A stretch of 64,000 bases of DNA, from assembly GCA_964357975.1 (NCBI GenBank), contig CAYHNG010000003.1, positions 393 through 64,392 of the forward strand, in the 5' to 3' direction. Shown here piece by piece: positions 521-6,685 of the stretch (its first letter is position 1; each line of letters begins with the position of its first letter). The notes beneath the pieces were generated by a model. It saw nothing but the letters and a program-made list of their open reading frames with translations, was not told where the DNA came from and ran no database searches. This stretch comes from an uncultured Pseudomonadales bacterium. GTDB taxonomy: Bacteria > Patescibacteriota > Microgenomatia > UBA1400 > MFAQ01. The position numbers were made by a program, and so were the translations under genes.

Positions 521-1525
521 TTAAGGTGTGACTGTTTCGGGGAATATATAGTCAGCAGCTATTTTTGCTACGTTTCTCGAAGAACCTTTACCTGGTAACA
601 TGTGGAGAGAGAATCCAGGATTCGAATTTACTTCAAGAATAGTGTACATGTCTTTTGTTTGTTCCTTAGTGATGTCTTTGCTTAACATATCAAAGCCGAT
701 ATATGGCATGCCTTTAAATATTGAGATTATATCTCGTGCTATTTGTCTCACTGATGAGTGAATCACATCAGTGGCGTCCTCACACATTCCCCCTTTGGCT
801 ACATTGGTTGTTTTCCTTAAATATACTTTTTCTCCCATTTTAGGAACGTATTTTAAATCTGTATTCTGTTTAGTCAAAGTATTTTTTACAACTTCATCAA
901 TAACTATCGGAGACAAACATGTTGTTCTGGGCGACATTCTCCTTTCGGATTCAATTTTTGCCAATTTAAGAATGCTGTTTGCCCCATCACCAATTACACT
1001 CGCTGGGTCACGATGAACAATCGCCAGATCGCCCTTTGAGGTAATAAACACCCGATATTCTTTACCCTCAAAATGTTTCTCAATAATGAACGGGGTTGAA
1101 TCTCCACAATACTTTACAAAATCTGCGACTGCATCTCCGAGTTCCCTTTCAGAATTAAGATCAGAATAGACAAAATCACCATGTGATCCCATATTTGGCT
1201 TAACCACCACAGGGAATCCAATTTTTAGCGCATAATTAACCGCTTGTGACTTTTGATCAGGATAAAATAATTCTCCTTCGGGAACACTGATATCATTTTT
1301 ATTAAGAAAATACTTTGTCAGTCGTTTATCAGCACAGATATTCACGATGGTAAAGGGAATAATTGAAGAAAATCTATCTGCGATGAGTTCAGTATGATCG
1401 CCATAACGAGCTTCCAATAATTCCATATTCTCATCTATTAGAGAGACTTTAACTTTTCGTTTTAACAGCTCCCGAACCAATAAAGCCTGATTCGTATGTA
1501 ACAGCACCTTTTTATTTTCGATCAT
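521..1525 (-). CDS. RimK-like ATP-grasp ligase (glutathione-synthetase/RimK fold)
   Basis: 334-aa ORF. ATP-grasp motifs GFPVVVKP and ILEVNSNPG (RimK has VMEVNASPG). It is the last gene of the minus-strand operon. Confidence 0.8.
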   Translation of the reverse strand: MIENKKVLLHTNQALLVRELLKRKVKVSLIDENMELLEARYGDHTELIADRFSSIIPFTIVNICADKRLTKYFLNKNDISVPEGELFYPDQKSQAVNYALKIGFPVVVKPNMGSHGDFVYSDLNSERELGDAVADFVKYCGDSTPFIIEKHFEGKEYRVFITSKGDLAIVHRDPASVIGDGANSILKLAKIESERRMSPRTTCLSPIVIDEVVKNTLTKQNTDLKYVPKMGEKVYLRKTTNVAKGGMCEDATDVIHSSVRQIARDIISIFKGMPYIGFDMLSKDITKEQTKDMYTILEVNSNPGFSLHMLPGKGSSRNVAKIAADYIFPETVTP

Positions 1526-1545
1526 GGTTAAACTTAGAAAATACT

Positions 1546-1725
1546 CTATTCTCCGCCAGTTGGTGTTTCTCCAGGAGCTCGTCTTACTTCTGAGGTTCTA
1601 GGTGTTTCACTTCCCTTTCTTCTTAGCGCTGGACTATGTTCCGGTGTCAGTGTAATCCTGTGGACTTCTTTAGCAAGTCCACCTGTCGGCGTTTCTGTTA
1701 TTCCGATCTTTTTAACTTCTATCAT
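1546..1725 (-). CDS. unannotated 59-aa ORF, a candidate precursor or substrate peptide (MIEVKKIGITETPTGGLAKEVHRITLTPEHSPALRRKGSETPRTSEVRRAPGETPTGGE)
   Basis: Hand-translated from the minus strand. ATG at 1725-1723 and TAG at 1548-1546. It fills the only non-overlapping gap (250 nt) in an otherwise stop/start-overlapping operon. A promoter-like TTGATA-18-TATAAG lies directly upstream, and the stop is 20 nt before the ATP-grasp start. It has no Cys or aromatic residues except His and is Thr/Pro/Gly/Glu-rich, with ETPTGG at both ends. Confidence 0.35.
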   Translation of the reverse strand: MIEVKKIGITETPTGGLAKEVHRITLTPEHSPALRRKGSETPRTSEVRRAPGETPTGGE

Positions 1726-1731
1726 AAATTA

Positions 1732-4358: not shown

Positions 4359-5041
4359 CTTGGTAGCGAATTGATTATTTCATGAAAGAGGGATTTATAG
4401 GAATCAATCTCTGGAGAACAACTTGTATCAAATACAAACAGTCTTCCCCTGTTGTATTTTTTTTGCCATTTTTTTATTAAATTTGTTTTTCGCTTTGTAT
4501 TTAACTGAAATTTGATCCGTTTATGAAGCTGGCTCAATGGCAGGTCGGTATCCATTAGTCTGTTACTTTGGGTGGATTCACTACATTTGAGTAGAACAAC
4601 ATTGCCGTTAACGAGATCTAACCATCCGTCTTCTGCCAACATAGCCCATTCAACTACGATAATCCCTTTCGAATTATTAATTTTCGATGTCAAAATATCT
4701 CTTATAAATGGATTAACAATATCTTTGTATGTTTCCATCTTTTTTTCGGAGGAAAAAATTGTTTCACCCAGCTCTAATCCTGAAATTGCATAGTATGGAC
4801 TATTTTGAATTAAGGAAAGATTTAGTTTTTCTACAAGAGTCTGACGCAACTTTATAAATGTTAGATCCTTTGAAGATGTTAGAATTTCTCTTCTAATTTC
4901 ATCAACTTGAACTAAAGAAATTTTTATGTTTTCTTTTTTGGCAATCTGTTTAAAAGTATCTAGGGCGTAGCTCTTCCCACTGGCAATGTTACCAGTAACT
5001 CCAAAGACTTCTTTTATGCTATTTTTACCAATTGAGTCCAT
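4355..5041 (-). CDS. P-loop kinase, dephospho-CoA kinase (CoaE)-like
   Basis: 228 aa. Walker A GVTGNIASGKS (CoaE has GxTGGIGSGKS). Translationally coupled on both sides. Confidence 0.55.
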   Translation of the reverse strand: MDSIGKNSIKEVFGVTGNIASGKSYALDTFKQIAKKENIKISLVQVDEIRREILTSSKDLTFIKLRQTLVEKLNLSLIQNSPYYAISGLELGETIFSSEKKMETYKDIVNPFIRDILTSKINNSKGIIVVEWAMLAEDGWLDLVNGNVVLLKCSESTQSNRLMDTDLPLSQLHKRIKFQLNTKRKTNLIKKWQKKYNRGRLFVFDTSCSPEIDSYKSLFHEIINSLPR

Positions 5042-6392
5042 ATTTCATTGGGCATAGAGAAACCACCTTCCCCGAATTAATACTATTTAATTTGTCAATA
5101 TCTAATTGTGACTCTACGAGAAAATAATTTTCATTTATCAACTGTTTTAATAATTCTGTAACCTTATTCTGAATATACGTTTGCGACAACTTAGATAAAT
5201 TTACATTTTGATGATTATTGTGAATATATTGAAAATTATTTCGATCATCATATGGATGTTCTTTTTGTAATTTACTTCCTAAACGTAATGCAAGATAGTG
5301 GATTCTTATTTCATCAGTTTGGGTATCTCGAATCAAGCCTAAGGTATCATCTAATGCCCCTTCTGTTATGTTTGGTAAATCAATAATCCAACTAGTTCTA
5401 ATTCTGAATCCGATTTCTTTAGTTTTATTAATGACATCTCTAATCTGTTCCTGAGTAATGTTTTTATTAATTTTTCTTAGAATATTATCATTTCCTGACT
5501 CGACACCGTAATGAATCCAACGGAATCCGGCCTGGTACATTAGCTTCATTGTTTCTTCATCAAATAGAGAAATAGAGCCTAGACATCCAAGTTTTGTTTT
5601 TATCTTTTTTTTGATAATGAGTCTTGATATTTCTGCCATTCTTTCTTTACTTACCATTGCATTATCGTCTAAAAACAGAATTTTCTTAGCCTGATAGTTA
5701 TTTACCAAATCAGCTATTTCTTCAACTACTTTTTTCGGACTTCGACTCCGCCACCTGCCCCAAAAACCAGGTGTAGCACAAAAGATACAATTCATAATGC
5801 ATCCACGACTAGAAAGAATAGTCCTCACATCAATATATTTGCCTATATTAAGTAAACTCCTGTCAGGAGTTGGCAACGAATCAAAGTCCGCCATAACGTC
5901 ATTTTCATTTGAATGGATTGAGCCATCCTTCAAATATGAGAATCCTTTAATCGAATAAATATCAGATTTGTTTTCTAAAGCGTTTAAGAAATTTTTCAGA
6001 GGAAGTTCAACCTCATAAGAGATAGCGAAATCAATCGGAGATTTTTCATAAAGTAGTCTTTCCTTATCAAAAGTTGCTACTTTTCCACCAACTACGATAT
6101 AAGAACCATATTGCTTTGCAATTGAGGCAATCTGGAGTATATCAATGAGAGTCGCACTAGTATGAAGGGGAATGTGATAGTCAAATAGGATAACAACCAC
6201 ATCGGGGGAAAAACTTCTGATGATATTTTCACTTTCCTCTGGAGACATTTTTTCAACATCCATATCGAGAACTTTTACTTCGTTTTTTTGGTGCTTGATG
6301 TAAGTTGCCACAACCAAAAGATCAATCGGTTCGATTAATAGGTTTTTGCCTGTAAAAGGTGAGTTTGGGGGGTTGATAAATAAGATCTTCAT
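5025..6392 (-). CDS. B12-binding domain radical SAM protein (class B)
   Basis: 455 aa. N-terminal Rossmann-like B12-binding domain, then CIMNCIFC (CX3CX2C). It is the first gene of the operon. The minus-strand leader carries TGGTATCAT, an extended -10-like element, about 25 nt upstream of the ATG. Confidence 0.85.
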   Translation of the reverse strand: MKILFINPPNSPFTGKNLLIEPIDLLVVATYIKHQKNEVKVLDMDVEKMSPEESENIIRSFSPDVVVILFDYHIPLHTSATLIDILQIASIAKQYGSYIVVGGKVATFDKERLLYEKSPIDFAISYEVELPLKNFLNALENKSDIYSIKGFSYLKDGSIHSNENDVMADFDSLPTPDRSLLNIGKYIDVRTILSSRGCIMNCIFCATPGFWGRWRSRSPKKVVEEIADLVNNYQAKKILFLDDNAMVSKERMAEISRLIIKKKIKTKLGCLGSISLFDEETMKLMYQAGFRWIHYGVESGNDNILRKINKNITQEQIRDVINKTKEIGFRIRTSWIIDLPNITEGALDDTLGLIRDTQTDEIRIHYLALRLGSKLQKEHPYDDRNNFQYIHNNHQNVNLSKLSQTYIQNKVTELLKQLINENYFLVESQLDIDKLNSINSGKVVSLCPMKYGLNW

Positions 6393-6685
6393 TGTTCGTG
6401 TGTGGTAAACCCATTTATGATACCATAATCGGTTGATACTCTATAAGTCATTTTAGGTTCAGATCAAGGATTCGCAGAGCAACTATCCCGACTGCAGTCG
6501 GGATACATTATTAACCCGCCAAAAGCTATGCATTTTAGGCGGACAGGTCGCGCGCAAGTGGTTCCGCCGGCAGGTGGTGGCGAACCGCGAGACACGAAGT
6601 GTTGATGTGTACAGTGACCTGCCCGCAATCGCTGAAGCGATAGCTTCTGCAGGCGGGGCCAATATAGATTAGTAATGGTCCCAAA

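What the first reader, a model, noticed from the sequence alone, without database searches (positions are those of the whole stretch)
521..6440. Translationally coupled radical-SAM / B12-rSAM / ATP-grasp / methyltransferase / kinase operon: a candidate peptide (RiPP-like) or cofactor-tailoring system
Five minus-strand genes are chained by overlapping stop/start codons at 5025-5041, 4355-4358 and 2466-2469. They encode a B12-binding radical SAM (CIMNCIFC), a CoaE-like P-loop kinase (GVTGNIASGKS), a radical SAM (CNYSCKYC, GGEPF) with a Cys-rich SPASM/twitch-like region, a class I SAM methyltransferase (LDLGCGNG) and a RimK-like ATP-grasp ligase (ILEVNSNPG). The only gap in the operon (1526-1776) contains a promoter and a 59-aa ORF. 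This combination is not a housekeeping set. Radical SAM/SPASM, B12-rSAM C-methylase and ATP-grasp ligase are the enzyme classes used for RiPP maturation (graspetides, proteusins and similar) or for glutamylated cofactor tailoring. No close characterised cluster layout comes to mind, so it may be an undescribed modification system in a reduced genome.
Basis: partly seen in the sequence, partly recalled or inferred. Interest (0 to 1): 0.8.

Follow-up and report, generated by a model that had tools for sequence, protein, structure and literature searches.

The report
Conserved Glu-Ser peptide-modifying gene cassette
Six tightly packed genes in a Collierbacteria (CPR) genome form an undescribed, horizontally spread cassette in which two radical-SAM enzymes, a kinase, two SAM-dependent transferases and an ATP-grasp ligase travel with a small protein whose only conserved feature is a repeated Gly/Ser-Glu-Ser/Thr motif. 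It looks like a new peptide-modifying pathway shared by ultrasmall bacteria, DPANN archaea and gut bacteria.

Summary
Five overlapping or near-abutting minus-strand genes (521-6392) encode a B12-binding rSAM, a CoaE-like kinase, an rSAM fused to a DUF3419 (BtaA-like) SAM-transferase domain, a class I methyltransferase and an ATP-grasp ligase. A 59-aa ORF lies in the only gap.

They are not a chance set. The same modules lie together in 46 of 67 related loci; most of the rest are cut by contig ends. Hosts include CPR bacteria, DPANN archaea, gut Clostridia and Bacilli, Alphaproteobacteria, Bdellovibrionales and Melainabacteria. Fusion proteins join kinase-rSAM-DUF3419-methyltransferase and ATP-grasp-methyltransferase.

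The small ORF is conserved by position and motif, not by sequence. Nearly every locus has a variable protein (49-630 aa) beside the ATP-grasp or B12-rSAM gene, with [G/S]-E-[S/T/N] motifs (GESR, SESR, GESP, SENL; here xETP and a C-terminal GGE) at its termini. The motif is 17-fold enriched, frame-specific, and kept in lineages that read TGA as Gly.

No protease, exporter or immunity gene co-travels. No Pfam, NCBIfam, PADLOC or literature entry describes the system.

Best reading: a new RiPP-like or scaffold-templated system acting on Glu in that motif. The chemistry is unresolved. The promoter claim is not supported.

The parts
5025..6392 (-). B12-binding-domain radical SAM enzyme (455 aa, CIMNCIFC cluster motif), first gene of the cassette
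   Evidence: Pfam B12-binding 49.3 bits and Radical_SAM 87.7 bits. Best NCBIfam matches are BchE 155, HpnJ 125, PhpK 108 and HpnR 102 bits, all far below cut-offs. Nearest PDB sequence is OxsB at 2e-13. Collinear with the kinase and rSAM genes in related loci.
4355..5041 (-). CoaE-like P-loop kinase (228 aa), overlapping both neighbours
   Evidence: Pfam CoaE 52 bits. NCBIfam dephospho-CoA kinase 51.1 bits, below the 65.55 cut-off. It aligns with T. maritima dephospho-CoA kinase 2grj through the P-loop, VxVD and HP-like motifs. This domain is fused N-terminally to the rSAM in 49 of 120 homologues.
3399..4358 (-). Radical SAM domain (aa 1-320) of the 630-aa fusion protein. It has CNYSCKYC plus a three-Cys twitch-like auxiliary-cluster region (C247, C265, C312).
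   Evidence: Pfam Radical_SAM 93.9 bits. Invariant Cys columns are seen in an 18-sequence alignment. Nearest solved structures by profile are SkfB 5e-24, PqqE 2e-19, BlsE 2e-17 and MoaA 2e-15. Best NCBIfam matches are AhbD, MftC and NirJ2, all below cut-offs.
2469..3368 (-). DUF3419 (BtaA-like) class I SAM-dependent transferase domain (aa 331-630) of the fusion protein
   Evidence: Pfam DUF3419 37.1 bits against GA 28.2, covering profile positions 31-129 of 385. The AF2 model has pLDDT 94.3 and a Rossmann-type fold with a helical insert. Only distant PDB matches to methyltransferases and spermine synthase, E about 1e-5 and TM about 0.4. About 104 cluster representatives at E<=1e-30 among 1.84 billion proteins. 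It is a separate gene in the Bacilli and Clostridia loci.
1777..2469 (-). Class I SAM methyltransferase (230 aa, LDLGCGNG), probably an N-methyltransferase
   Evidence: Pfam Methyltransf_25/11 about 61 bits. A family profile's best PDB matches are plant phospho(methyl)ethanolamine N-methyltransferases at 8e-24, eight orders of magnitude ahead of the next hit. Other N-methyltransferases follow (PRMTs, BamL, CypM). AzeJ and VioH are not among the top 60 listed hits. Fused to rSAM-DUF3419 in 8 homologues and to the ATP-grasp in P0223.
1546..1725 (-). 59-aa putative substrate or scaffold protein MIEVKKIGITETPTGGLAKEVHRITLTPEHSPALRRKGSETPRTSEVRRAPGETPTGGE, with TETP, SETP, GETP and SEVR motifs and a C-terminal GGE
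   Evidence: It has the highest motif density of 598 window ORFs: 3 motifs against 0.5 in shuffles, p=0.006. Positional and motif equivalents exist in about 55 other loci. It is called as a gene in NCBI, ENA and Logan records. It has no Pfam or NCBIfam family.
521..1525 (-). ATP-grasp ligase (334 aa, ILEVNSNPG) of the cyanophycin-synthetase G-domain / GshF type, last gene of the cassette
   Evidence: NCBIfam cyanophycin synthetase 221 bits, aligned to profile positions 164-474 of 862. GshAB scores 161, NAGGN synthetase 137, LysX 51 and RimK 50 bits, all below cut-offs. Nearest PDB entries are CphA1 at 7e-38 and GshF at 5e-32. The family is a tight group of about 335-aa proteins, 45-55% identical.
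6440..6690 (.). GC-rich (50.6%) non-coding stretch directly upstream of the cassette. It may be a leader or a remnant; whether it belongs to the system is uncertain.
   Evidence: GC 0.506 against 0.346 for the cassette. Minus-strand fold -81 kcal/mol, z=-2.6. The only Rfam match is a sub-threshold THF-riboswitch-like hit on the opposite strand, 19.6 bits against GA 36. No tRNA.

Best explanation
The region is a six-gene operon. I interpret it as a self-contained peptide/protein-modifying pathway.

The substrate. The 59-aa protein, like its variable counterparts elsewhere, is the dedicated substrate or scaffold. The enzymes act on the Glu-centred motif [G/S]-E-[S/T/N] exposed in its N- and C-terminal tails.

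Inferred steps.
- The ATP-grasp ligase activates a carboxylate of the motif as an acyl phosphate and joins an amine to it. The carboxylate would be the Glu side chain, or the alpha-carboxylate when Glu or Glu-Ser is C-terminal.
- The kinase-rSAM-DUF3419-methyltransferase unit is separate genes here and one polypeptide in other genomes. It phosphorylates a hydroxyl, abstracts a hydrogen atom from the tethered unit, transfers an alkyl group from SAM (possibly 3-amino-3-carboxypropyl, as BtaA does) and N-methylates the resulting amine.
- The B12-domain rSAM adds a methyl group to an unactivated carbon, or performs another radical step.

Likely outcome. No protease, exporter or immunity gene travels with the cassette, and the carriers can be large folded proteins. 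The product most likely stays in the cell. It would be either a Glu-derived metabolite or cofactor built on a scaffold (in the manner of PQQ, mycofactocin, LysW or the pearlins) or a permanent tail modification.

In this Collierbacteria genome the cassette is a foreign, low-GC insertion.

Shown: gene set, conservation, fusions, motif. Inferred: which residue is modified, every chemical step and the fate of the product.
For: Anatomy: six minus-strand ORFs with overlaps of 4, 4 and 17 nt and gaps of 20 and 51 nt, with domains confirmed.

Conservation: the search for related loci returned 80 loci. Of these, 67 carry the DUF3419 domain and 46 of those have all six enzyme modules within 7 kb. Most of the rest are cut by contig ends or carry a diverged kinase. 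Hosts include Peribacteria, Peregrinibacteria, Patescibacteria, Margulisbacteria, Nano-, Woese- and Pacearchaeota, gut Clostridia, Bacilli and Mollicutes, Alphaproteobacteria, Bdellovibrionales, Micavibrio and Gastranaerophilales.

Fusions: CoaE-rSAM 30, CoaE-rSAM-DUF3419 15, rSAM-DUF3419-MTase 4 and CoaE-rSAM-DUF3419-MTase 4 of 120 homologues; one ATP-grasp-MTase fusion, P0223.

Substrate protein:
- A variable ORF lies directly upstream of the ATP-grasp gene, or of the B12-rSAM gene in recoded lineages and in Margulisbacteria.
- [GST]E[STN] occurs at 3.17 per 100 aa in 57 such ORFs against 0.185 per 100 aa in 186,848 aa of flanking ORFs. GESR occurs 110 times and SESR 80 times.
- There are 266 motifs in the ORF frame against 0-15 in the other five frames of the same DNA.
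- 50 distinct 12-mers encode [GS]ESR, and the Ser uses both TCN and AGY codons.
- The motif is kept where TGA encodes Gly.
- 50 of 55 proteins carry it within about 6 residues of a terminus, against 3-6% of background ORFs.

Peptide-type enzymes: the rSAM is nearest to SkfB and PqqE. The ATP-grasp is nearest to enzymes that extend peptide carboxylates, CphA1 G domain and GshF.

No other family co-travels: an ABC transporter in 12 of 67 loci and a NUDIX protein in 10 of 67.

Foreign origin: cassette GC 0.346 against 0.447 for the rest of the window. The host is assigned to Collierbacteria through the RNase Y 90%-identity cluster.
Against: - No experiment or mass datum links any enzyme to the small protein. 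Adjacency and a short motif are circumstantial.
- The small proteins share no alignable domain across phyla, and some are large (486-630 aa).
- The two Peribacteria carriers (L002 and L006, 486-488 aa) are not motif-enriched internally and share only the C-terminal ...GE.
- One complete Woesearchaeota genome locus (L046) has B12-rSAM, kinase, rSAM (without DUF3419) and methyltransferase but no ATP-grasp or motif protein nearby. Four loci lack the methyltransferase.
- The CoaE fold and the rSAM's similarity to MoaA, BlsE and viperin would fit a nucleotide substrate equally well.
- No RiPP recognition element was detected in any enzyme.
- The DUF3419 match to the BtaA family covers only the SAM-binding part of the profile, so aminocarboxypropyl transfer is a guess.
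Confidence: 0.6

Rival explanations
1. Classical secreted RiPP. The small ORF is a multi-core precursor whose modified GES(R)-type units are cut out and exported as an antimicrobial or signalling peptide.
For: The repeated short core motif resembles multi-core precursors. The rSAM is nearest to the RiPP maturases SkfB and PqqE. B12-rSAM and ATP-grasp are RiPP-associated enzyme classes (ApyD and RiPP C-methyltransferase families among the sub-threshold hits). The patchy, HGT-like distribution and GC mismatches in several hosts are typical of accessory biosynthetic clusters.
Against: No peptidase, exporter, immunity or regulator family co-travels in 67 loci. There is no signal or double-Gly leader and no NHLP/Nif11 or other precursor family hit. 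Carriers of up to 630 aa with folded domains are unlike leaders. Motifs sit at the extreme N terminus as well as the C terminus. The ATP-grasp is not of the graspetide type, and the system does not appear in the graspetide survey.
Confidence: 0.15
2. Small-molecule (nucleotide or lipid head-group) pathway that does not use the small ORF. The two rSAMs, the kinase, the DUF3419 domain and the methyltransferase tailor a nucleoside/nucleotide or a betaine-type head group. The ATP-grasp ligates an amino acid to that molecule. The motif ORF is a regulator, a chaperone or incidental.
For: The kinase keeps the dephospho-CoA-kinase fold and motifs, and such kinases normally act on nucleotides. The rSAM core also resembles MoaA, BlsE and viperins. 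DUF3419 plus an N-methyltransferase mirrors BtaA/BtaB of betaine-lipid synthesis. L046 keeps a four-enzyme core without an ATP-grasp or motif protein. NAD/ADP-ribose-related genes (NrtR, NUDIX, PnuC/NadR-like/CinA, NMNAT-like) recur beside the cassette.
Against: This does not explain why a protein with the same frame-specific Glu motif is kept next to the ATP-grasp or B12-rSAM gene across bacteria and archaea, and across a genetic-code change. The viperin, MoaA and CoaE equivalog cut-offs are all missed by wide margins. CPR and DPANN hosts are not known to make their own lipids (own knowledge).
Confidence: 0.2
3. Chance neighbourhood of housekeeping genes: a true coaE, a tRNA/rRNA-modifying rSAM, an unrelated methyltransferase and a RimK-like ligase, with a spurious small ORF.
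For: Each domain family has housekeeping members. Pfam CoaE is above its gathering score.
Against: The same set and order recur in about 65 loci from distant phyla. Multi-domain fusions link the enzymes. None reaches any NCBIfam equivalog cut-off. The cassette GC is 10 points below the host's. The small ORF's motif is conserved and frame-specific.
Confidence: 0.02

Closest known systems
Peptide-derived cofactor pathways: PQQ (PqqA/PqqE) and mycofactocin (MftA/MftC)
   Same: A small ribosomal peptide sits next to an rSAM enzyme with an auxiliary cluster. A Glu (in PQQ) or a C-terminal residue (in mycofactocin) is the site of radical chemistry. The product is used inside the cell. The rSAM here is closest to PqqE, MftC, SkfB and AhbD.
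   Different: PqqE and MftC cut-offs are missed (89 against 381 bits; 118 against 265). There is no PqqD/MftB-type recognition domain and no PqqB/C/F or MftD/E/F. Here there are three auxiliary-cluster Cys, not a full SPASM. The motif is repeated many times. A kinase, a DUF3419 domain, a B12-rSAM and an ATP-grasp are added.
Amino-group carrier protein systems (LysW/ArgW with the ATP-grasp LysX/ArgX and the kinase LysZ). The LysW details are from my own knowledge.
   Same: A small acidic carrier ends in -G-E. An ATP-grasp ligase encoded beside it loads an amino acid on the Glu, and a kinase then acts on the tethered unit. The window protein ends in ...TGGE, the Peribacteria ones in ...SSGE and ...ASGE, and the Margulisbacteria one in ...GSNE.
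   Different: LysX similarity is marginal (51 bits against a 275.6 cut-off). The ligase here is of the CphA-G/GshF type. The carrier has no Zn-ribbon domain. The kinase has a P-loop CoaE fold, not an amino-acid-kinase fold. There is no reductase, aminotransferase or release hydrolase. Most carriers have many internal or N-terminal motifs.
BtaA/BtaB (betaine lipid DGTS synthesis) and, by chemical analogy, diphthamide synthesis
   Same: A DUF3419/BtaA-family SAM transferase is paired with, and sometimes fused to, an N-methyltransferase. BTA1 shows the same pairing. An ATP-dependent step acting on a carboxylate completes a diphthamide-like logic of aminocarboxypropyl transfer, trimethylation and amidation (own knowledge).
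   Different: The Pfam match covers only positions 31-129 of 385. The domain here is fused to a canonical rSAM and linked to a peptide motif. No lipid context exists, and the hosts largely lack lipid synthesis. Aminocarboxypropyl transfer is untested.
Cyanophycin synthetase CphA1 (G domain), GshF and RimK
   Same: The ATP-grasp aligns over its whole length to the CphA1 G domain and to the GshB-like half of GshF. Like RimK acting on protein S6, it is paired with a protein ending in Glu.
   Different: It is a stand-alone 334-aa protein without the CphA1 N and M domains. It scores 221 bits against a cut-off of 850. It is embedded in an rSAM cassette.
Repeat-motif rSAM target systems such as the His-Xaa-Ser system (HxsA-D) and multi-core RiPPs (from my own knowledge; the defining paper was not retrievable)
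   Same: The target protein is recognisable only by a short tandemly repeated motif and is encoded beside rSAM enzymes. Function is unknown.
   Different: The motif is different (Glu-Ser, not His-Xaa-Ser) and so is the enzyme set. No HxsB/C family appears among the best NCBIfam hits.
VioH/AzeJ-type azetidine-carboxylate clusters of CPR bacteria (PMC11794875)
   Same: That paper reports a class I SAM-utilising enzyme with a B12-rSAM and ATP-grasp enzymes in CPR genomes, spread by horizontal transfer.
   Different: Neither the methyltransferase nor the DUF3419 domain resembles AzeJ or VioH. They do not appear among the PDB sequence or fold matches listed. No tRNA ligase or NRPS is present here.

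Membership tests
RiPP biosynthetic gene cluster (generic definition) | A ribosomally made precursor or substrate peptide is encoded with the modifying enzymes | tested here: met
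   A motif-bearing ORF lies adjacent to the ATP-grasp or B12-rSAM gene in the window and in about 55 other loci. The motif is 17-fold enriched and frame-specific.
RiPP biosynthetic gene cluster (generic definition) | A leader/core organisation with a recognition element (RRE) in a maturase | tested here: not met
   No PqqD/RRE-type domain appears in any of the five enzymes by Pfam or NCBIfam. The rSAM core starts about 25 residues from the N terminus. RREs can escape HMMs, so this is weak negative evidence.
RiPP biosynthetic gene cluster (generic definition) | A dedicated leader peptidase and/or exporter or immunity gene | tested here: not met
   Clustering of 877 flanking ORFs from 67 loci found no co-travelling family. 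The most frequent were an ABC transporter in 12 loci and a NUDIX protein in 10.
Graspetides (omega-ester peptides) | An ATP-grasp of the MdnB/MdnC/PsnB clade and a precursor with spaced Thr/Ser/Lys...Asp/Glu core motifs | tested here: not met
   The best matches are the cyanophycin synthetase G domain (221 bits) and GshF (161 bits); no graspetide ligase family is listed. The graspetide survey has no occurrences of the search terms B12, CoaE or DUF3419.
Proteusins / polytheonamide-type | An NHLP/Nif11 leader, an rSAM epimerase and B12-rSAM C-methyltransferases | tested here: not met
   The small proteins hit no NHLP/Nif11 or other family. The B12-rSAM scores below the RiPP C-methyltransferase cut-off (71.9 against 281.85 bits).
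PQQ / mycofactocin maturases | Equivalog-level match to PqqE or MftC, with a full SPASM domain | tested here: not met
   PqqE scores 89.2 against 381.35 bits and MftC 118.3 against 265. Only three conserved auxiliary Cys are present.
Dephospho-CoA kinase (CoaE, housekeeping) | Equivalog-level match and a stand-alone housekeeping context | tested here: not met
   Pfam CoaE is above GA (52 against 27 bits), but NCBIfam TIGR00152 scores 51.1 against 65.55. The domain is fused to the rSAM in 49 of 120 homologues.
BtaA family (S-adenosylmethionine:diacylglycerol 3-amino-3-carboxypropyl transferase, DUF3419) | A Pfam DUF3419 match over the domain | tested here: inconclusive
   37.1 bits against GA 28.2, but only profile positions 31-129 of 385 are matched. 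The fold is class I SAM-dependent with no close solved relative. The AFDB library was unavailable.
BtaA family (S-adenosylmethionine:diacylglycerol 3-amino-3-carboxypropyl transferase, DUF3419) | Transfer of the aminocarboxypropyl group of SAM to a hydroxyl acceptor | not testable with these tools
   This needs an enzyme assay detecting methylthioadenosine release and a +101 Da adduct.
Prokaryotic viperins (pVip) with kinases | Viperin-family equivalog including the C-terminal nucleotide-binding region | tested here: not met
   The PADLOC pVip models match only the rSAM core, residues 23-172 (76 bits). NCBIfam viperin scores 66.6 against 180 bits.
Amino-group carrier protein system (LysW/LysX) | A LysX/ArgX-type ATP-grasp and a carrier with a C-terminal Glu | tested here: inconclusive
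   A C-terminal ...GGE is present in the window protein. LysX scores only 51.2 against 275.6 bits, over residues 55-128.
AZE synthase (AzeJ/VioH) clusters | An AzeJ/VioH-like SAM lyase | tested here: not met
   No AzeJ or VioH chain is among the listed PDB matches of the methyltransferase (single sequence or profile) or in the listed fold matches of the DUF3419 domain.

The most novel reading that the evidence does not exclude
The cassette is a previously unrecognised scaffold-templated pathway. Glu residues in [G/S]-E-[S/T] motifs of a dedicated carrier protein are converted into a new Glu-derived metabolite, cofactor or betaine/phospho-type protein modification. The work is done by a kinase-rSAM-aminocarboxypropyl-transferase-N-methyltransferase assembly line, a B12-domain rSAM and a CphA-like ATP-grasp. 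The trait has been exchanged horizontally among organisms that share a reduced, host-dependent anaerobic lifestyle: CPR bacteria, DPANN archaea and small-genome gut Bacillota and Alphaproteobacteria.
Probability: 0.3. Interest if true: 0.9.

Novelty: new variant of a known kind. Interest (0 to 1): 0.78.

Why it matters
If the reading is right, this is a new class of peptide-templated radical-SAM chemistry, with three unusual features.

- The substrate motif is untouched by current knowledge: Glu-Ser repeats at protein termini.
- The enzyme combination is unprecedented, with a dephospho-CoA-kinase-like domain, an rSAM, a BtaA-like domain and an N-methyltransferase sometimes on one polypeptide.
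- It is one of the few multi-enzyme biosynthetic traits shared by CPR bacteria, DPANN archaea and abundant uncultured human and animal gut bacteria.

These organisms are thought to have minimal biosynthetic capacity. Keeping six genes, two needing Fe-S clusters and one with a cobalamin-binding-type domain, implies an important product.

The motif and the compact cassette make the question directly testable by heterologous expression and mass spectrometry. The motif also gives a simple rule for finding further substrates.

Tried and rejected
- Riboswitch or RNA gene in the gap or upstream. Rfam at gathering and E-value thresholds gave only sub-threshold chance-level hits. ARAGORN found no tRNA or tmRNA in 1-12000.
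- Island boundaries. No flanking direct repeats or att-like sites were found in 1-7200. Close relatives of the flanking genes were not available at 90% identity, so the empty site could not be compared.
- Phage carriage. A viral-contig scan found only generic rSAM cores at 35% identity or less.
- Defence system. PADLOC gave only generic rSAM-core and methyltransferase hits.
- AZE-synthase link, suggested by PMC11794875. Rejected because neither SAM-dependent domain resembles AzeJ or VioH.
- True CoaE, viperin, MoaA, PqqE, MftC, BchE, PhpK, LysX, RimK or cyanophycin synthetase. All NCBIfam cut-offs were missed.
- Known family for the small proteins. None in Pfam or NCBIfam.
- Literature. Searches on DUF3419; rSAM + ATP-grasp + CoA kinase; aminocarboxypropyl + RiPP; carrier protein + rSAM; CPR/DPANN + rSAM + ATP-grasp; and GESR found no description. 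The Haft & Basu 2011 paper was not held.
- An exact look-up of the 630-aa protein failed, because public gene calls use a shorter start.
- The AFDB fold library was not available.
- Promoter in the gap. Not found on the coding strand.

Full report
**1. What is in the window**

Positions 521-6392 carry five minus-strand ORFs: 5025-6392, 4355-5041, 2466-4358, 1777-2469 and 521-1525. The first three junctions overlap by 17, 4 and 4 nt. The single gap holds a 59-aa ORF (1546-1725). It starts 51 nt after the methyltransferase stop and ends 20 nt before the ATP-grasp start.

Pfam and NCBIfam confirm the enzymes:
- B12-binding + Radical_SAM
- CoaE-like P-loop kinase
- Radical_SAM + Fer4_12 followed by a DUF3419 domain
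- class I methyltransferase
- ATP-grasp ligase

None reaches the curated cut-off of any NCBIfam family. The 630-aa reading of the fusion protein is correct, because the conserved FCLFRIP motif precedes the start used in the public 613-aa gene call.

After the CX3CX2C motif only three Cys are conserved (C247, C265, C312). This fits a twitch-like auxiliary cluster with an open site, not a full SPASM.

No minus-strand promoter-like site lies in the gap, and promoter-like hits in the region are at chance level.

**2. Host and origin**

The window is a bacterial chromosome encoding GltX, RelA/SpoT, CCA-adding enzyme, SecD and RNase Y. It also carries an RNase P class A RNA. Its RNase Y falls in a 90%-identity cluster with Candidatus Collierbacteria proteins, so the host is a CPR bacterium. 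An identical copy of the cassette occurs on a groundwater metagenome contig (L001, ENA record ERZ1292624, contig name Hain_H41_01um).

The cassette has 34.6% GC against 44.7% for the rest of the window. Comparable mismatches in both directions occur in other hosts (L038, L024, L010, L014, L066). This points to horizontal transfer. No orthologue is found on viral contigs, and no flanking repeats mark the insertion.

**3. The gene set is a conserved unit**

Homologues of the rSAM-DUF3419 protein are 35-50% identical and come from many lineages. A genome scan returned 80 loci, and tblastn with the window proteins shows the same modules side by side.
- 67 loci contain the DUF3419 domain.
- 46 of these have all six modules within 7 kb.
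- Most of the remainder are cut by contig ends, or have a kinase domain too diverged for tblastn.

The order B12-rSAM, kinase, rSAM, DUF3419 is fixed. The methyltransferase comes either before or after the small-ORF/ATP-grasp pair.

Hosts are:
- Peribacteria, Peregrinibacteria, Patescibacteria, Margulisbacteria, and a lineage annotated as genetic code 4 in its source record
- Nano-, Woese- and Pacearchaeota
- many gut Clostridia, Bacilli, Mollicutes and Tenericutes MAGs
- Alphaproteobacteria, Micavibrio, Bdellovibrionales and Gastranaerophilales

Fusion proteins tie the enzymes together:

| Architecture | Count among 120 homologues |
|---|---|
| CoaE-rSAM | 30 |
| CoaE-rSAM-DUF3419 | 15 |
| rSAM-DUF3419-MTase | 4 |
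| CoaE-rSAM-DUF3419-MTase | 4 |
| ATP-grasp-MTase | 1 (P0223, from a separate search) |

No further gene family co-travels. In particular there is no peptidase, exporter or immunity gene. The DUF3419-type domain is rare: about 104 cluster representatives at E<=1e-30 among 1.84 billion.

**4. The small ORF**

The 59-aa protein has no sequence homologue outside its own contigs. However, nearly every locus has an ORF directly upstream of the ATP-grasp gene. Most are 50-240 aa; in Peribacteria they reach 486-488 aa. In the recoded (TGA=Gly) lineages a 143-160-aa protein sits upstream of the B12-rSAM gene. In Margulisbacteria a 630-aa protein takes that position.

These proteins share no domain across phyla. 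What they share is a short motif:
- GESR or SESR in Firmicutes and DPANN archaea (110 and 80 occurrences)
- GESP, GESS or GES in some CPR and Alphaproteobacteria
- SENL or GENL in other Alphaproteobacteria
- a C-terminal ...GE in CPR and Margulisbacteria

The window protein reads MIEVKKIGI**TETP**TGGLAKEVHRITLTPEHSPALRRKG**SETP**RT**SEVR**RAP**GETP**TG**GE**.

Statistics on the motif:
- [GST]E[STN] occurs 3.17 times per 100 aa in 57 such proteins, against 0.185 in 186,848 aa of flanking ORFs.
- It exceeds composition-preserving shuffles at p below 0.05 in 42 of 57 individual proteins. The window ORF has 3 against 0.5 expected, p=0.006.
- There are 266 motifs in the ORF frame against 0-15 in the other five frames of the same DNA.
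- [GS]ESR is encoded by 50 different 12-mers, with Ser drawn from both codon families.
- The motif persists where TGA codes for Gly.
- 50 of 55 proteins carry it within about six residues of the N or C terminus, against 3-6% of background ORFs.
- Within the window, this ORF has the highest motif density of 598 ORFs.

The ORF is therefore real, and it is the cassette's sixth, fast-evolving component. No Pfam or NCBIfam family covers it.

**5. What the enzymes resemble**

- rSAM half. Nearest solved relatives are the peptide maturases SkfB (5e-24) and PqqE (2e-19). BlsE, MoaA and viperins follow. The best NCBIfam models are AhbD, MftC and NirJ2.
- DUF3419 half. It folds with high confidence (pLDDT 94) as a class I SAM-dependent transferase with a helical insert. 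It has no close solved relative. Its Pfam family includes BtaA, the aminocarboxypropyl transferase of betaine-lipid synthesis, but only the SAM-binding part of the profile is matched.
- Methyltransferase family. Its best solved relatives by a wide margin are plant phosphoethanolamine N-methyltransferases (8e-24). Other N-methyltransferases follow.
- Kinase. It aligns with dephospho-CoA kinase through the P-loop and substrate-site motifs.
- ATP-grasp. It aligns end to end with the G domain of cyanophycin synthetase and the glutathione-synthetase half of GshF. Per my own knowledge, these enzymes add an amino acid to a peptide carboxylate.
- B12-domain rSAM. It is equidistant from BchE, HpnJ, PhpK, HpnR and the MCR glutamine C-methyltransferase.

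**6. Most likely mechanism**

Shown:
- a six-gene unit
- physical fusion of four catalytic modules in some genomes
- a co-encoded protein whose only conserved feature is a Glu-centred terminal motif
- absence of release or export genes

Inferred:
- The motif protein is the substrate or scaffold.
- The ATP-grasp activates the motif's Glu carboxylate, or the terminal carboxylate, and ligates an amine.
- The kinase/rSAM/DUF3419/N-methyltransferase line phosphorylates, radical-activates, alkylates (possibly with the aminocarboxypropyl group of SAM) and N-methylates the unit.
- The B12-domain rSAM methylates an unactivated carbon.

With no protease or exporter, and with carriers of up to 630 aa, I favour an intracellular outcome. 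That would be a scaffold-built Glu-derived metabolite or cofactor, or a retained tail modification, rather than a secreted antibiotic. I put 0.6 on the general statement that this is a peptide/protein-directed pathway with the small ORF as target. Any single chemical scheme deserves much less.

**7. Rivals**

- Secreted multi-core RiPP (0.15). It is weakened by the missing peptidase, exporter and leader features.
- Nucleotide or head-group pathway independent of the small ORF (0.2). Support comes from the CoaE fold, the MoaA/BlsE/viperin similarity, the Woesearchaeota locus L046 that lacks DUF3419, ATP-grasp and carrier, and recurrent NAD/ADP-ribose-related neighbours. It cannot explain the conserved motif protein.
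- Chance juxtaposition of housekeeping genes (0.02). The comparative data contradict it.

**8. Comparison with known systems and novelty**

The system works most like peptide-derived cofactor pathways (PQQ, mycofactocin) and carrier-protein pathways (LysW/LysX/LysZ). It also has a BtaA/BtaB-like or diphthamide-like alkylation-methylation pair. It fails the membership tests of each of these. It also fails those of graspetides, proteusins, pVip systems, cyanophycin synthetase and the AzeJ/VioH clusters reported in CPR bacteria.

No paper in the searchable library describes it.

I classify it as a new variant of a known kind: rSAM-centred peptide modification. It has a real chance of being something more distinct. 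Interest is 0.78. A specialist would be surprised by the enzyme combination, the motif and the host range, and the hypothesis is directly testable.

Noticed in passing
window 6440-6690: A GC-rich (50.6%) non-coding stretch lies between the cassette and the next gene. On the minus strand it folds at z=-2.6 and includes a perfect 9-bp hairpin (AUCCCGACU-GCAG-AGUCGGGAU). The only Rfam match is a sub-threshold THF-riboswitch-like hit on the plus strand (19.6 bits against GA 36).
   Followed up: partly
L007, L061, L063, L064, L067 (NrtR); L017/18/21/22/33/61/63/64/72/79 and L105 (NUDIX); L002 4175-7876; L046 7402-7959: NAD/ADP-ribose-related genes recur next to the cassette in unrelated lineages. 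They include the NrtR regulator, NUDIX hydrolases, the PnuC NMN transporter with a NadR-like kinase and CinA, and an NMNAT-like cytidylyltransferase. This may hint at a nucleotide link. Related genomes are not independent samples.
   Followed up: partly
L105 2050-3942: In Margulisbacteria the motif-tailed protein upstream of the B12-rSAM gene is 630 aa. It has a sub-threshold, apparently split Macro (ADP-ribose-binding) domain (19.3 bits against GA 22), a coiled coil and the tail ...SSGYGSNE.
   Followed up: partly
L002 2007-4133 (also L029, L058): A 708-aa protein fuses a paralogous ATP-grasp (36% identical to the cassette ligase) to a radical SAM domain. It lies a few kb upstream of the cassette in Peribacteria.
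   Followed up: no
L012, L013, L014, L106: Loci labelled Peribacteria or 'gcode 4' have 10-12 in-frame TGA codons in the B12-rSAM gene, so they use a recoded genetic code (TGA sense). With table 25 the small protein reads through to a GES-rich tail.
   Followed up: yes
L046 (Woesearchaeota CP060218, complete genome) 7963-11754: A reduced cassette has B12-rSAM, kinase, a 333-aa rSAM without the DUF3419 domain, and the methyltransferase. It has no ATP-grasp or motif protein nearby. An Obg/DRG-type GTPase follows.
   Followed up: partly
L008, L019, L041, L046 6440-7351: A roughly 300-aa winged-helix-containing protein (no family assigned here) lies near the cassette in several DPANN loci. It may be a lineage-specific regulator.
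   Followed up: no
window 55511-60778 and 53745-55514: A 1755-aa alpha-2-macroglobulin-like protein carries Big_5 and pretoxin-HINT domains. Next to it is a PGA_cap/Memo fusion protein. Both are unusual large surface or defence-type genes for a CPR genome.
   Followed up: no
window 37765-38073: Bacterial RNase P class A RNA, 118.8 bits (GA 100).
   Followed up: no
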